NCBI GenBank assembly: GCA_020148055.1
Contig: JAHCRF010000002.1
Span: forward strand, 28,138-92,137
Direction: 5' to 3'
DNA length: 64,000 nucleotides
Source: Patescibacteria group bacterium
GTDB taxonomy: Bacteria > Patescibacteriota > Minisyncoccia > Minisyncoccales > JAHCRE01
Part shown: one piece after another, positions 16,990-37,457 of the stretch
Layout: every line of letters begins with the position of its first letter
Numbering within the stretch: the first letter of the stretch is position 1
Notes under the pieces: generated by a model
What the model saw: the letters and a program-made list of their open reading frames with translations, nothing else
Told to the model about the DNA's origin: nothing
The model's database searches: none
Program-made: the position numbers and the translations under genes

Positions 16990-17409
16990 CTACCAAATTT
17001 CGCATATCACCTCTCCTCCCAATTTTTGTTTTCTTATCTCCCTATCAGTCATTAAGCCTTCGGGAGTTGAAACTATAACCATCCCATATCCTCCCCGAAC
17101 TTTTTTAATTTTTTTATAGGAAAGGTAAATTCTTTGACCAGGTTTTGAAATCCTCTTCAGATTAGAAATAGCAGGCCGCCTTTGGCGAGCCTCGCCTTCG
17201 GCGGAAGTTTTTTCGATATATTTTAAGGTGATTCTAATAATTTTTTTTGCTTTCTTCCCTTTTTTTTCAAATTTTTCAATAAATCCCTCCTTTGCTAGAA
17301 TTTGAATAATCCTGTATTTAATTTGAGAAAAAGGAATGTCAACCGTGGGATGAAAAACGGCCTGGGCATTTCTTATTCGATTGAGAAGGTCGGTAATAGG
17401 ATCAGTCAT
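16990..17409 (-). CDS. rpsH: 30S ribosomal protein S8
   Basis: MTDPITDLLNRIRNAQ...ISKPGQRIY...GGYGMVIVSTPEGLMTDREIRKQKLGGEVICEIW. Confidence 0.95.
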   Translation of the reverse strand: MTDPITDLLNRIRNAQAVFHPTVDIPFSQIKYRIIQILAKEGFIEKFEKKGKKAKKIIRITLKYIEKTSAEGEARQRRPAISNLKRISKPGQRIYLSYKKIKKVRGGYGMVIVSTPEGLMTDREIRKQKLGGEVICEIW

Positions 17410-31416: not shown

Positions 31417-31992
31417 ATGATACTTATTATCGGTCTTGGCAATCCCGGGGAAGAATTTAAGAAAACCCGACATAATCTTGGTTTTCGAGTTGTTAATCAA
31501 TTCGTGAAAGAAAAGAAATTCTTGAAATTTAAATTTTCAAAAAAATTCAATTCTTTAATTTCTGAAGGATTTTTAGATAAGAAAAAAACAGCTTTAGCTA
31601 AACCTCAAACTTTTATGAATGAATCAGGAAAAGCAGTAAAAAAATTGTTTACTGTTTACTGTTCACTATTGACTGATTTGTGGGTGATTCATGATGATGT
31701 TGACTTGCTTTTAGGAAAAATAAAAATTGTCAAAAATCGTGGAGCAGCTGGCCACAAAGGAGTTAAATCGATAATTAACGAACTAGGGACAAAAAACTTT
31801 GTGAGATTTAGAGTTGGAATTAAACCACAGAGAACAGAGAACAGAAAACAGAAAACAGAAAAGTTTGTTCTTCAAAAATTTACAAAAGAAGAAGAAAAAA
31901 TTATAAAGAAAGTTATTAAAAAAGGCTGTCTGGCAATTAAGATAGCGATAACCGAAGGAATTGAAAAAGCAATGAATCGGTTTAATAAATAA
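31417..31992 (+). CDS. pth: peptidyl-tRNA hydrolase
   Basis: LIIGLGNPGEEFKKTRHNLGF...PQTFMNESG...VIHDDVDL...GAAGHKGVKS. Confidence 0.93.
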   Translation: MILIIGLGNPGEEFKKTRHNLGFRVVNQFVKEKKFLKFKFSKKFNSLISEGFLDKKKTALAKPQTFMNESGKAVKKLFTVYCSLLTDLWVIHDDVDLLLGKIKIVKNRGAAGHKGVKSIINELGTKNFVRFRVGIKPQRTENRKQKTEKFVLQKFTKEEEKIIKKVIKKGCLAIKIAITEGIEKAMNRFNK

Positions 31993-32060
31993 AAAATCGA
32001 GTAAGATTTTCTTTTACTCGACAGAAAATGGGGAAAGAGAACAAATAAAACTTTATATCC

Positions 32061-32305
32061 AATCCCGCCCTCCGGTCTATCTGCGAGCCCCGTAATGAAA
32101 ATACATTAGTATTTTACCACGAGCTTCACCCTTTAGTAAAAATTTACTACGGGCGAGCGCTATAATTAAAGGAAGATTACTTCCTAACCGTAGCTAGGGC
32201 TCGATAAGGTTTTCAGGAGGGATAACCCTATTCTTTTCATTTATTAAAACTTCAAAGAAATTTTAATAAGCGGAGCCACTCGCAGATAGGCTGGAAGGTG
32301 GAATC
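32061..32305. ncRNA. candidate structured RNA (or MITE-like inverted-repeat element), family unknown
   Basis: 32061-32087 pairs with 32279-32305 (22 Watson-Crick, 3 G-U on the plus strand, 2 C-A). Internal hairpins include TTATTAAAA-10 nt-TTTTAATAA, GGAAG-atta-CTTCC, AGGG-ataa-CCCT and AAAATAC-atta-GTATTTT. By eye it is G+C-richer than its surroundings. Confidence 0.4.
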
Positions 32306-32382
32306 TTATTCAATTTATATTATAAAAAATAAAAGTTAATTTGTCAAGCCCCCTTCTGCCGGTTTCATTGGTGGGGGTTAAG

Positions 32383-34335
32383 ATGATAAAAGAAAAAAAT
32401 CTAAATCGAGTTTTAATTGTTAGTATAATCCCCTATTTTTTAGAAAAGGGAAGTTTTTGGTTTGAAGAAAATTTTGAAAAAATTTTACAAATAAGAAAAG
32501 TTCAAAGCTGGTGGCAAGATAATACTTTAATTCCAGAAGAAAATCAAATTTTTAATTTTTCTCAATTTTTAAGAAAATTAGATGAATTAGGTTATGAAAA
32601 AGTTTATAAAGTCGGGGGTATTGGTGAATTTTCTCAAAGAGGAGGAATCATTGAGGTCTTTCCAATAAATTTGAATTTTCCTTTAAGATTTGAATTTTTA
32701 GGAAATAAAATTTTAGAAATCGAGAGATTAAAAATTGAAGTTAAAAATGAGAAGGAGGTAAAAGAAAGATTAAAGAAAAAATTAAAATATCAAAAAATTT
32801 ATTCTCAGTTAGATCATTTAAAAACAGGGGATTTTTTGGTCCACTTAGATCACGGAATTGGAATTTACAATCAGCAATTAACAATTAATAATCAACAATA
32901 TCACCAACTCGAATACGCGGAAGGTGACAGACTATATGTCCCAGTAGGATTGGAGAGAAAATTATCAAGATACATAGGCTTTACTCAGCCAAAAATTTCT
33001 AGATTAGGCAGTCCTCTTTGGCAGAGAACAAAGAAAAAAATTAAGGAAGAAGCTGAAAAACTGGCTAAAGAACTTTTAGAGATCGCAACCATTAGAGAAA
33101 TTGCCACCCGCCCCCCTTATTTGCCTTCTAATGAAATTGATTTTCAATTGGCATCGGGCTTTCAATATACCGAAACTCCAGACCAAATCCAAGTAATTGA
33201 AGAAATAGAAAAAGATTTAGAAAAAAATCGACCAATCGATAGATTGATTTGTGGTGACGTTGGTTTTGGAAAAACTGAAATTGCTTTAAGAACAATGATA
33301 AGAGTGGTGAACTCAGGCTATCAGGCAGTGATGATTTGCCCGACGACAATCTTAGCCAATCAACATTTCCAAAATTTTAAAGAAAGGTTAAAAAATCTCC
33401 CAGTGAAAATCAATTTACTTTCAAGATTACAATTGAAAAGAGAACAAAAGGAAATAATCAAAAAATTAAGAGAAGGAAAAATTGACATTATAATTGGCAC
33501 TCACCGAATTTTATCAAAAGATGTAGCATTTAAAAATTTAGGGATCTTAATTATTGATGACGAGCAAAGGTTTGGAGTCAGACAAAAAGAGAAATTGAGA
33601 AAGATACGTTCATCTCTTGATGTTCTTTCACTTTCTGCCACTCCAATCCCCAGAACCTTATATTTAGCCCTATCTTCTTTAAAGAAAATTTCTTTAATCC
33701 AAACTCCACCAGTAGGCCGATTACCGGTTAAAACTTTTATTTTACCCTGGTCAGAAAAAGTTATTAAAGAGGCAATTGAAAACGAAATTTCAAGAGGAGG
33801 TCAGATTTATTATTTACACAATAGAATTGAAACAATTGGGGTAGTCAAAAATCTTTTGGAAAATTTAGTTCCCGGGGCAAGAATTGGCATCGCCCATGGT
33901 AGGTTAAGGGAAAAAGAACTGATAAAAGTAATGACTAAATTTCAAAATAAAATTATTAATGTTTTAGTTGCTACCACTATAATTGAAAATGGTCTTGATT
34001 TTCCTAATGTTAATACCTTAATTGTTGCTGATGGAACGAGATTAGGTTTAGCTGAGGCATATCAAATAAGAGGAAGAGTTGGTAGGTCTCATATCAAGGC
34101 TTTTGCCTATTTTCTCTATGGCAGAAATCTTTCAGAGAAAGCAAAAATGAGATTAAAAGCCCTAAAGGAAGCTGAAGCCCTGGGTTCCGGTTATAGAATT
34201 GCCTTAAAAGATTTGGAAATTCGAGGAGCTGGAAATATTTTGGGAAGGGAACAATCTGGAAATATAAATCAGGTGGGATTAAATTTATATTGCCAAATGT
34301 TATCTGAAGCTATCGAAAAATTAAAACCGAAATAA
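32383..34335 (+). CDS. mfd: transcription-repair coupling factor, short form (650 aa; lacks N-terminal UvrB-homology module and C-terminal domain)
   Basis: RNAP-interaction/CarD-like GDFLVHLDHGIGIY, helicase motifs GDVGFGKTE, DDEQRFG, SATPIPRTL, QIRGRVGR. ATG 32383 is preferred over TTG 32341 (purine-rich GGTGGGGG 6 nt upstream). Confidence 0.85.
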   Translation: MIKEKNLNRVLIVSIIPYFLEKGSFWFEENFEKILQIRKVQSWWQDNTLIPEENQIFNFSQFLRKLDELGYEKVYKVGGIGEFSQRGGIIEVFPINLNFPLRFEFLGNKILEIERLKIEVKNEKEVKERLKKKLKYQKIYSQLDHLKTGDFLVHLDHGIGIYNQQLTINNQQYHQLEYAEGDRLYVPVGLERKLSRYIGFTQPKISRLGSPLWQRTKKKIKEEAEKLAKELLEIATIREIATRPPYLPSNEIDFQLASGFQYTETPDQIQVIEEIEKDLEKNRPIDRLICGDVGFGKTEIALRTMIRVVNSGYQAVMICPTTILANQHFQNFKERLKNLPVKINLLSRLQLKREQKEIIKKLREGKIDIIIGTHRILSKDVAFKNLGILIIDDEQRFGVRQKEKLRKIRSSLDVLSLSATPIPRTLYLALSSLKKISLIQTPPVGRLPVKTFILPWSEKVIKEAIENEISRGGQIYYLHNRIETIGVVKNLLENLVPGARIGIAHGRLREKELIKVMTKFQNKIINVLVATTIIENGLDFPNVNTLIVADGTRLGLAEAYQIRGRVGRSHIKAFAYFLYGRNLSEKAKMRLKALKEAEALGSGYRIALKDLEIRGAGNILGREQSGNINQVGLNLYCQMLSEAIEKLKPK

Positions 34336-37369: not shown

Positions 37370-37457
37370 GCCGCGGTGCTGGAACTGGAAGACAGGATGG
37401 ACTCAAAATCCATTGTCCCAAAAGGACGTGTGGGTTCAATTCCCACCCGCGGCACCA
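37370..37457 (+). tRNA. tRNA-Leu (anticodon CAA), long variable arm, genomically encoded CCA
   Basis: Acceptor GCCGCGG/CCGCGGC, anticodon stem-loop ATGGA-CTCAAAA-TCCAT, variable arm TGTCCCAAAAGGACG, T arm GTGGG-TTCAATT-CCCAC, discriminator A + CCA. Confidence 0.9.

What the first reader, a model, noticed from the sequence alone, without database searches (positions are those of the whole stretch)
32061..32305. ~245-nt G+C-enriched structured region between pth and mfd: unknown ncRNA or MITE-like element
27-nt termini pair with each other (32061-87 with 32279-305: 22 Watson-Crick pairs, 3 G-U on the plus strand, 2 C-A). All terminal differences are transitions. The interior holds at least four local hairpins, including a perfect 9-bp TTATTAAAA/TTTTAATAA. 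I looked for universal motifs of RNase P RNA (GAGGAAAGUCC, ACAGAAnnnGGCUUA), tmRNA (T-arm + CCA), SRP RNA (GGAA-loop helix 8) and common riboswitches, and found none convincingly. A minus-strand stretch AAGGGUGAAGCUCGUGGUAA faintly recalls RNase P CR-IV, but CR-I is absent. The wobble count slightly favours the plus strand, the same as the flanking genes. A hairpin right after the pth stop (31998-32020 CGAGTAA..TTACTCG) precedes it.
Basis: seen in the sequence. Interest (0 to 1): 0.55.

Follow-up and report, generated by a model that had tools for sequence, protein, structure and literature searches.

The report
Conserved small RNA gene, opposite strand
The structured stretch between pth and mfd is a real, independently transcribed small RNA gene on the opposite strand from its neighbours, one member of an undescribed RNA family of the tiny "candidate phyla radiation" (CPR) bacteria, whose one invariant loop copies the ribosome's mRNA-docking sequence.

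Summary
The element is the core of a roughly 320-nt RNA gene on the minus strand. It follows the only perfect TTGACA-17-TATAAT promoter in the 64 kb (32347→32319) and ends at a hairpin plus U-run (32022→31986).

I found 88 homologous loci with 52 distinct RNAs (113-271 nt) in Patescibacteria metagenomes and MAGs. Wherever the contig reaches far enough, they lie between a divergent mfd (one exception, L104) and a convergent pth. More distant members lie next to pth in other CPR lineages.

All share a 20-23-bp terminal clamp helix, a hairpin whose loop reads AUCCCUCCU (57 of 59 sequences), and one or more further hairpins. Covariation is strong: 34 of 55 pairs change on both sides. G·U pairs outnumber A·C by 272 to 64, which fixes the strand.

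No Rfam family, tRNA or tmRNA matches. Half of the RNAs stand alone with a terminator. The other half are followed by unrelated small ORFs, often GGDEF.

Best reading (inferred): a stable small RNA that displays an anti-Shine-Dalgarno mimic and pairs with ribosome-binding sites. Rivals are a protein decoy and a riboswitch.

The parts
32342..32347 (-). -35 hexamer TTGACA of the RNA's promoter
   Evidence: the only 12/12 TTGACA-N17-TATAAT in the 64 kb (0.02 expected). It is invariant in the close relatives, and a near-consensus promoter precedes 46 of 52 unique family members.
32319..32324 (-). -10 hexamer TATAAT. The transcription start is inferred at about 32310-32314.
   Evidence: The start site is inferred from the usual 5-9-nt spacing of sigma-70 promoters; it has not been measured.
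31986..32312 (-). Predicted primary transcript, about 320-330 nt
   Evidence: Runs from the promoter to the terminator. The whole-transcript fold is -116 kcal/mol.
32278..32298 (-). P1 clamp helix, 5' strand (CCUUCCAGCCUAUCUGCGAGU). In this copy the pairing can extend to 32305.
   Evidence: Family covariation: across distant lineages 12 of 20 P1 pairs change on both sides and 93% of cells are paired, against 36-48% when the partner is slid.
32068..32088 (-). P1 clamp helix, 3' strand (GCUCGCAGAUAGACCGGAGGG). In this copy it extends to 32061.
32273..32277 (-). P2, 5' strand (GGCUC); pairs with 32198-32202
   Evidence: It covaries in the family: GGCUC/GAGCC, GAGCUAC/GUAGCUC, GGUUC/GAACC, GACUC/GAGUC.
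32198..32202 (-). P2, 3' strand (GAGCC)
32238..32272 (-). Optional in the family.
   Evidence: Eleven of 12 pairs covary. It is absent from the minimal members L183, L184, L101, L181.
32204..32231 (-). H2, the hairpin that presents the invariant loop
   Evidence: Four of 6 stem pairs change on both sides.
32215..32223 (-). Loop motif AUCCCUCCU, an anti-Shine-Dalgarno-like sequence
   Evidence: CCCUCCU is identical in 57 of 59 family sequences, including the distant lineages, and the other two read AUCUCUCCU and AUCACUCCU. In other members the loop is left unpaired in the minimum-energy fold. In the window's own fold only CCUCCU is unpaired; AUC pairs in the H2 stem.
32159..32194 (-). H3 hairpin. 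A hairpin of this type serves as the single 3' hairpin in L087, L113, L120, L134.
32126..32156 (-). H4 hairpin, specific to this lineage. It contains the start of the 'RNase P-like' stretch, which continues into H5.
   Evidence: Present only in the window, L083, L084 and L188.
32089..32123 (-). H5 hairpin, aligned by the covariance model to the family's P3
   Evidence: All 15 P3 pairs covary in the family.
31986..32022 (-). Intrinsic terminator: GUCGAGUAA-loop-UUACUCGAU followed by UUUUUUAUUUAU. The tail ends 2 nt short of the pth stop codon (31990-31992) and overlaps the last pth sense codon and the codon before it.
   Evidence: Conserved in L084, L086 and L087. The consensus scan missed it because its loop is 9 nt.

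Best explanation
What it is (well supported, about 0.9): a single-copy gene for a small structured RNA on the minus strand. A consensus sigma-70 promoter at 32347->32319 drives it, and an intrinsic terminator at 32022->31986 ends it. It belongs to an undescribed RNA family of Patescibacteria (CPR). The family has three defining features: (i) a 20-23-bp clamp helix formed by the two ends; (ii) a hairpin whose apical loop reads AUCCCUCCU(U/A)A; (iii) at least one further hairpin. The window copy is an expanded variant with three extra hairpins.

How it works (inferred, about 0.4-0.45): the clamp and the side hairpins make a stable, nuclease-resistant scaffold. It may be cut out of longer transcripts, because relatives tolerate 200-nt insertions ahead of P1 and whole ORFs behind it. 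The scaffold displays an unpaired C-rich loop that copies the CCUCCU of the 16S rRNA 3' tail. That loop pairs with G-rich Shine-Dalgarno regions of mRNAs and blocks ribosome binding. Targets would include the strongly SD-led ORF that is co-transcribed behind the RNA in half of the relatives, and other mRNAs in trans. Where no ORF follows, as in this window, only the trans action remains.
For: Promoter and terminator:
- The promoter is the only perfect consensus in the 64 kb.
- It is invariant in close relatives, and 46 of 52 unique members have a near-consensus promoter 7-50 nt upstream.
- A terminator lies downstream.

Conservation and synteny:
- 83 metagenome contigs and 7 GTDB genomes matched a conserved arm pattern.
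- In the 88 loci where the full RNA could be delimited, it lies between a divergent mfd and a convergent pth, apart from loci cut by a contig end and L104, which has no mfd upstream.

Structure:
- 91.6% of cells are paired, against 82% after shuffling and about 44% when the partner is slid. Thirty-four of 55 pairs change on both sides.
- P1 covaries across lineages that share no P1 sequence.

Strand:
- G·U:A·C is 272:64.
- The covariance model scores the window at 91 bits on minus and 29.5 bits on plus.

Distant members:
- L015, L077, L050, L023, L053, L036 and L046 (two tandem copies) keep the clamp and the CCUCCU loop.
- L077, L050, L036 and L046 have a terminator directly after the clamp; a near-consensus promoter was seen for L050 and L036.

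Loop: CCCUCCU is invariant in 57 of 59 sequences, and the motif is predicted unpaired in the folds of other members (partly paired in the window's own fold).

Downstream ORFs in relatives carry strong AGGAGG SDs 20-55 nt after P1, with no terminator in between.

From established knowledge: unpaired UCCC or C-rich loops of Firmicute sRNAs (RNAIII, RsaE/RoxS) act by pairing with SD regions.
Against: - No expression data exist, and no target has been identified.
- Any SD is complementary to a CCUCC loop, so complementarity to the downstream ORFs is not specific evidence.
- Extended complements of the loop are not enriched in the window: 19 found against 17.8 expected.
- Strong conservation of the P1 sequence within the Nealsonbacteria-type clade, and A-rich conserved junction strands, would also fit a protein or ligand binding site.
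- I did not check the 16S rRNA 3' tail of these organisms.
Confidence: 0.45

Rival explanations
1. Protein decoy or RNP scaffold. The loop, and in the Nealsonbacteria-type clade also the outer CCUUCC/GGAGGG part of P1, mimics the 16S rRNA 3' tail or an SD-antiSD duplex. It would bind a factor that normally recognises that part of the 30S subunit, for example bS21, Era's KH domain, or a 3'-end maturation or cleavage enzyme, and so titrate or regulate it.
For: - The loop is invariant well beyond what base pairing with degenerate SDs needs: AUCCCUCCU in 57 of 59. In the commonest class GAUCCCUCCUUA matches 11 of the 12 aligned positions of the E. coli 16S tail GAUCACCUCCUUA, which has one further A (the tail sequence is from established knowledge).
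- There is a precedent: OLE RNA P6 carries a perfect CCUCCU mimic that binds bS21 (PMC12054373).
- The gene is single-copy, syntenic and driven by a consensus promoter, as housekeeping RNP RNAs are.
- L046 has two tandem paralogues, as sponge RNAs often do.
Against: - No partner protein is encoded consistently beside it. The neighbours pth and mfd have no known RNA-decoy link.
- The SD-like strand of P1 is not conserved in distant members.
- Nothing could be tested here.
Confidence: 0.2
2. Ligand-sensing 5' leader (riboswitch), possibly for a signalling nucleotide. It would control the ORF that follows it in many relatives. The window copy would be an orphan that has lost its ORF.
For: - 27 of 52 unique RNAs are followed within 60 nt by an SD-led ORF with no terminator in between.
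- The ORFs fall into about 13 unrelated families. Two are independent GGDEF diguanylate-cyclase families, 9 of 28 unique ORFs. This is a gene spectrum like that of c-di-GMP riboswitches.
- The junction strands are conserved and A-rich.
Against: - 25 of 52 members, and four of the seven distant-lineage loci, are followed directly by their own terminators.
- There is only one locus per contig, always the same one.
- No expression platform is visible. No terminator or antiterminator overlaps P1, and the real SD lies 15-45 nt beyond P1 across variable, unstructured spacers.
- No c-di-GMP-I or -II, ydaO or other riboswitch model matches at E<=10.
Confidence: 0.13
3. A divergent version of a universal housekeeping RNA: 6S, SRP, RNase P or tmRNA.
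For: It has a consensus promoter, is single-copy and is conserved across CPR lineages. Its long closing helix and occasional co-transcription with a downstream ORF recall ssrS-ygfA (from established knowledge).
Against: - No Rfam 6S, SRP, RNase P or tmRNA hit even at E<=10 on short inputs. ARAGORN is negative.
- The architecture is a branched junction with no central bubble.
- There is no GGAA-loop domain IV, no CR-I or CR-V, and no tRNA-like end.
- The 'RNase P-like' stretch lies at the H4/H5 boundary, and H4 is lineage-specific.
Confidence: 0.05
4. A DNA-level element: a MITE or other inverted-repeat mobile element, or a protein-binding palindrome between divergent promoters.
For: It has 26-nt inverted termini. 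A weak 17-nt direct repeat flanks it (D1, 82%). pth and mfd abut directly in some other CPR lineages.
Against: - One copy in the window, and one fixed syntenic site in 88 loci.
- No hit in viral contigs.
- Compensatory changes occur in every helix, with a 272:64 G·U strand bias that only selection on RNA produces.
- It has its own promoter and terminator.
Confidence: 0.02

Closest known systems
C-rich / UCCC-loop regulatory sRNAs of Firmicutes (RsaE/RoxS, RNAIII hairpins)
   Same: A small RNA with its own promoter and intrinsic terminator. Its most conserved feature is an unpaired C-rich loop complementary to Shine-Dalgarno sequences. This is what I propose it works like.
   Different: - No sequence or structure homology: no Rfam RsaE or other hit at E<=10.
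- A different phylum.
- A clamp-plus-junction architecture.
- One loop with a longer CCCUCCU motif.
- Often transcribed together with a downstream ORF.
- Targets are unknown.
OLE RNA P6 SD/anti-SD mimic bound by ribosomal protein bS21 (PMC12054373)
   Same: A non-coding RNA carrying an exact CCUCCU copy of the 16S 3' tail. In the Nealsonbacteria-type clade the outer part of P1 (CCUUCC/GGAGGG) also looks like an SD-antiSD duplex.
   Different: OLE is about 600 nt, occurs in Bacillota, and holds the mimic in a base-paired stem. Here the mimic sits in an apical loop of a 113-271-nt RNA. There is no OLE homology, and bS21 binding is untested.
c-di-GMP-I (GEMM) and other riboswitch leaders
   Same: A structured 5' leader ahead of a diverse set of small genes, including GGDEF genes, in about half of the members.
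   Different: There is a single syntenic locus. Half of the members stand alone with a terminator. No expression platform is visible and no model matches.
6S RNA (ssrS)
   Same: A presumably abundant housekeeping-type small RNA with a long closing helix, a strong promoter, and sometimes a co-transcribed downstream ORF.
   Different: It has no central bubble or rod shape. It is a branched junction, and no Rfam 6S model hits.
MITEs
   Same: Inverted termini, a size of about 250 bp, and absence from the same site in some related lineages.
   Different: It is single-copy, sits at a fixed locus, is transcribed from its own promoter, and shows RNA-level covariation with a strand bias.

Membership tests
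MITE | Multiple dispersed copies in a genome | tested here: not met
   BLASTN and the covariance model find one copy in the 64 kb. All 88 related loci occupy the same site between mfd and pth. A whole genome was not available.
MITE | Terminal inverted repeats flanked by target-site duplications | tested here: inconclusive
   Inverted termini exist, but they covary as an RNA helix. The only flanking direct repeat is a 17-nt, 82% A+T-rich match, which is not convincing as a target-site duplication.
Any Rfam 15 family | Covariance-model score at or above the gathering threshold | tested here: not met
   There is no hit in the region at gathering score. At E<=10 on 551 nt there is only noise at or below 21 bits. 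The result is the same for six relatives and for a typical 156-nt member.
RNase P RNA | CR-I (GAGGAAAGUCC) and CR-V forming P4, and a size of about 280 nt or more | tested here: not met
   The motifs are absent from the sequence and no RNaseP model hits. The similar stretch lies at the boundary of H4 and H5, and H4 is missing from most members.
tmRNA / tRNA-like | tRNA-like domain and tag reading frame | tested here: not met
   ARAGORN finds nothing in 31800-32500.
Riboswitch (generic) | Sits in the 5' UTR of the regulated gene | tested here: inconclusive
   27 of 52 unique members are followed by an ORF within 60 nt. The other 25, including the window, are not.
Riboswitch (generic) | An expression platform (terminator/antiterminator or SD-sequestering helix) coupled to the aptamer | tested here: not met
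   Spacers between P1 and the ORF's SD are variable, A+U-rich and unstructured, and no competing helix overlaps P1.
Riboswitch (generic) | Specific ligand binding | not testable with these tools
   This needs in-line probing, ITC or reporter assays.
C-rich-loop SD-targeting sRNAs (RsaE/RoxS type) | An unpaired, conserved C-rich motif in a hairpin loop | tested here: met
   CCCUCCU is invariant in 57 of 59 sequences. It is left unpaired in the minimum-energy folds of other members; in the window's own fold part of the surrounding motif pairs in the H2 stem.
C-rich-loop SD-targeting sRNAs (RsaE/RoxS type) | Own promoter and Rho-independent terminator | tested here: met
.
C-rich-loop SD-targeting sRNAs (RsaE/RoxS type) | Homology to the RsaE family model, and demonstrated pairing with target SDs | tested here: not met
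   No RsaE hit, so it is not a member of that family. Target pairing cannot be tested here. The resemblance is functional only.
6S RNA | A rod-like fold with a large central bubble flanked by closing and terminal stems | tested here: not met
   The consensus is a branched junction, and no Rfam 6S model hits.

The most novel reading that the evidence does not exclude
A housekeeping RNA specific to CPR bacteria and conserved across at least two classes of Patescibacteria. It would display a copy of the 16S rRNA anti-Shine-Dalgarno tail on a clamped scaffold and act globally on translation initiation. It could do so either by masking ribosome-binding sites or by capturing a 30S-associated factor such as bS21 or Era. 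That would be a translation-control layer not described in these reduced-genome, episymbiotic bacteria.
Probability: 0.2. Interest if true: 0.8.

Novelty: new variant of a known kind. Interest (0 to 1): 0.6.

Why it matters
CPR/Patescibacteria are a large share of bacterial diversity, yet almost nothing is known about their regulatory RNAs. This study gives a ready-made family:
- 52 distinct sequences plus more distant members;
- a structure supported by covariation;
- a defined promoter and terminator;
- a fixed genomic address;
- one invariant loop that points to translation initiation as the process it touches.

The family can be added to RNA databases, so that annotators stop calling spurious ORFs or "MITEs" at this site. 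It can be searched for in metatranscriptomes. It can also be tested in vitro without cultivating the organisms, by loop-SD pairing, protein binding or ligand probing. Its frequent co-transcription with GGDEF cyclases and unknown small proteins also marks the site as a hotspot for accessory genes.

Tried and rejected
- Rfam at gathering score and at E<=10 on the window region, on six relatives and on a typical member found nothing.
- ARAGORN found nothing.
- The first exact-pattern scan of genome contigs, using both arms of the window copy, gave 0 hits. A 5'-arm pattern found only one genome. The 3'-arm pattern finally opened the family.
- A pattern for the L077/L050-type clamp found only L050's own contig. 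Clamp sequences therefore diverge too fast for exact-pattern surveys.
- The viral contig scan was negative.
- BLASTN and nhmmer of the element against 80 pth loci of more distant bacteria found nothing. The covariance model later found seven of them.
- I looked for loop-complementary sites (AGGAGGGAT) in the window as candidate targets. They are not enriched, and the two exact hits outside the RNA gene itself do not look like ribosome-binding sites; the one at 17283-17291 appears to lie inside coding sequence.
- I considered a pseudoknot between the loop and the J2/3 strand or the 3' tail. The complementarity is not conserved across lineages (by eye).
- I considered a conserved mismatch in P1 (C·A at alignment column 11 of A2). 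It is not universal: it is C-G in L023 and L036.
- I considered a small peptide encoded inside the RNA. An 18-codon frame exists in the window copy but is not conserved.
- Three literature searches found no description of this RNA.
- I wanted the 16S 3' tail of these organisms. No rRNA is present in the window or in the loci.

Full report
**1. The observation**

The window is A+T-rich (34% G+C). It comes from a Patescibacteria (CPR) metagenome scaffold. pth ends at 31992 and an mfd-like helicase gene starts at 32383, both on the plus strand.

- Arms 32062-32087 and 32279-32304 are 26 nt and 81% complementary, and all mismatches are transitions.
- Folding energy lies far below that of shuffled sequence on both strands (z = -7.6 on plus, -8.6 on minus).
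- G+C is about 40-42%.
- No Rfam family matches at gathering score or at E<=10, and ARAGORN finds nothing.
- No second copy exists in the 64 kb.

**2. Strand and transcription unit**

On the minus strand, directly upstream of the element, lies TTGACA-17 nt-TATAAT (32347->32319). It is the only perfect consensus promoter in the window, where 0.02 are expected by chance.

That makes it an intrinsic terminator for the minus strand. The consensus scan missed it only because its loop is 9 nt.

The unit is therefore a minus-strand transcript of about 320 nt. It is convergent with pth and divergent from mfd. The transcript ends are inferred, not measured.

**3. Relatives**

More distant pth loci (at most 61% Pth identity) showed no BLAST match, and pth and mfd often abut there. 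Close relatives were reached through Mfd homologues of 74-88% identity. They keep the promoter and the element at the same place.

A conserved 3'-arm pattern then retrieved 7 GTDB genomes (Nealsonbacteria, Wildermuthbacteria and others) and 83 metagenome contigs. Together these gave 88 loci in which the full RNA could be delimited, with 52 distinct RNAs of 113-271 nt.
- Wherever the contig reaches far enough, the RNA lies between a divergent mfd (one exception, L104) and a convergent pth.
- 46 of 52 have a near-consensus promoter 7-50 nt upstream.

A single fixed locus, together with no hit in viral contigs, rules out a mobile element.

**4. Structure**

An alignment of the 40 shorter members (A2) shows four elements:
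- a 20-bp clamp, P1;
- a short P2;
- inside P2, an optional hairpin H1 and a hairpin H2;
- a 3' hairpin, P3.

With this structure 91.6% of cells are standard pairs, against 82.0 ± 0.5% after shuffling and 32-48% when the partner is slid. Thirty-four of 55 pairs change on both sides (RNAalifold).

G·U pairs outnumber A·C mismatches by 272 to 64, and by 92 to 8 in P1. This fixes the functional strand as the promoter strand, which is the window's minus strand.

A covariance model built from A2 (R1) scores the window at 91 bits (E = 7e-22) on minus and 29.5 bits on plus. It aligns the window's H5 to P3 and treats H3 and H4 as a 74-nt insertion.

The window copy is thus an expanded variant. Its parts are P1 32298-32278 with 32088-32068, P2 32277-32273 with 32202-32198, H1, H2, H3, H4 and H5.

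**5. Breadth**

R1 also finds members beside pth, on the same relative strand, in other CPR lineages:
- L015 at 69 bits;
- L077, L050, L023, L053 and L036 (a Doudnabacteria MAG) at 20-30 bits;
- with filters off, L046, which carries two tandem copies.

Their clamp sequences are unrelated to the window's but still pair. Twelve of 20 P1 pairs change on both sides, and 93% of cells are paired against 36-48% when slid.

They keep the hairpin loop. L077, L050, L036 and L046 have a terminator directly after the clamp; a near-consensus promoter was seen for L050 and L036.

Across 59 sequences CCCUCCU is identical in 57, flanked by AU on the 5' side and (U/A)A on the 3' side. In other members' minimum-energy folds the motif is unpaired; in the window's own fold only CCUCCU is unpaired, with AUC in the H2 stem.

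**6. Context downstream**

In 27 of 52 unique RNAs an ORF with a strong AGGAGG SD starts 20-55 nt after P1, with no terminator in between. In the other 25, including the window, a terminator or the end of pth follows.

The ORFs fall into about 13 unrelated families:
- two GGDEF families (9 of 28 unique ORFs);
- a transglutaminase-like protein;
- small membrane peptides;
- a zinc-ribbon protein;
- several with no Pfam match.

Relatives also tolerate a roughly 200-nt G+C-rich insertion between promoter and P1 (L084, L087) and small palindromic insertions inside P1.

**7. Interpretation**

Shown:
- This is a conserved, single-copy structured RNA gene on the minus strand with its own promoter and terminator.
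- The defining features of its family are the terminal clamp and the CCCUCCU loop.

Inferred:
- The loop copies the CCUCCU of the 16S rRNA 3' tail. In the commonest class GAUCCCUCCUUA matches 11 of the 12 aligned positions of the E. coli tail GAUCACCUCCUUA, which has one further A (the tail sequence is from established knowledge).
- The simplest mechanism is that a stable clamped scaffold displays an anti-SD mimic, which pairs with SD regions and occludes them. It would act in cis on the co-transcribed ORF where one exists, and in trans otherwise. This is how C-rich-loop sRNAs of Firmicutes work. I give this mechanism about 0.4-0.45.

Rivals:
- A decoy for a protein that recognises the 16S tail or an SD-antiSD helix. 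The precedent is bS21 binding to the OLE P6 mimic (PMC12054373).
- A riboswitch. The GGDEF link and the leader position argue for it. The single locus, the many stand-alone members and the lack of an expression platform argue against it.
- A divergent universal RNA, for which no model or motif gives support.
- A DNA-level element, which is effectively refuted.

**8. Comparison and novelty**

It is not a member of any Rfam 15 family. Three full-text searches did not find it described. In kind it is a bacterial small regulatory or scaffold RNA. As a family and an architecture, a clamped junction carrying an anti-SD loop, fixed between pth and mfd and used both alone and as a leader, it appears to be new.

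The MITE alternative, the strand, and the RNase P hint were wrong.

Noticed in passing
L084 2745-2915; L087 about 2455-2620 and about 2800-2975; downstream of the RNA in L183, L136, L110, L015: A G+C-rich repeated element of about 170-200 nt (…AGAAAGGGGGTCGGGGAAAC…GAAACCGAGAGGTGTCTGGGGAGCGGAGCGAAG…GAGCGAC) lies next to the RNA gene in several relatives, in either orientation. L087 has two copies. It is absent from the window, and L087 gives no Rfam hit. It looks like a small mobile or repeated element of these genomes.
   Followed up: partly
L089, L116, L156, L180 (inside P1 of the RNA): Short palindromic hairpins (CCCTCC-AAAATTT…AAATTT-GGGAGGG type) are inserted into both strands of the clamp helix, duplicating the CGAG junction. 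The RNA evidently tolerates them.
   Followed up: no
window 32349-32378 (+): A C5…G5 hairpin (GCCCCCTTCTGCCGGTTTCATTGGTGGGGG) lies directly before the mfd ATG at 32383, between it and the RNA's -35 box. It is conserved as a hairpin in L083 and L084. It could sequester the G-rich mfd ribosome-binding site.
   Followed up: no
window 31827-31862 and 31646-31675 (+), inside pth: Tandem 7-nt repeats lie inside the pth coding sequence: ACAGAAA x5.1 and TGTTTAC x4.3. A repeat period that is not a multiple of three is unusual within an ORF.
   Followed up: no
L046 3846->3735 and 3643->3532 (minus): Two tandem members of the RNA family occur in one Patescibacteria MAG. Each has a long clamp and a CCUCCUU loop, and the downstream copy has a clear terminator.
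   Followed up: partly
Relatives: 20-55 nt downstream of the RNA (e.g. L090, L095, L118, L124, L126, L176): The slot between the RNA and pth is a hotspot for unrelated small genes. These include two families of short GGDEF diguanylate cyclases, one with an N-terminal membrane helix, and 50-65-aa membrane peptides.
   Followed up: partly
window 37370-37454 (+): This is the only Rfam hit in the window, a tRNA of 85 nt, which suggests a long variable arm.
   Followed up: no
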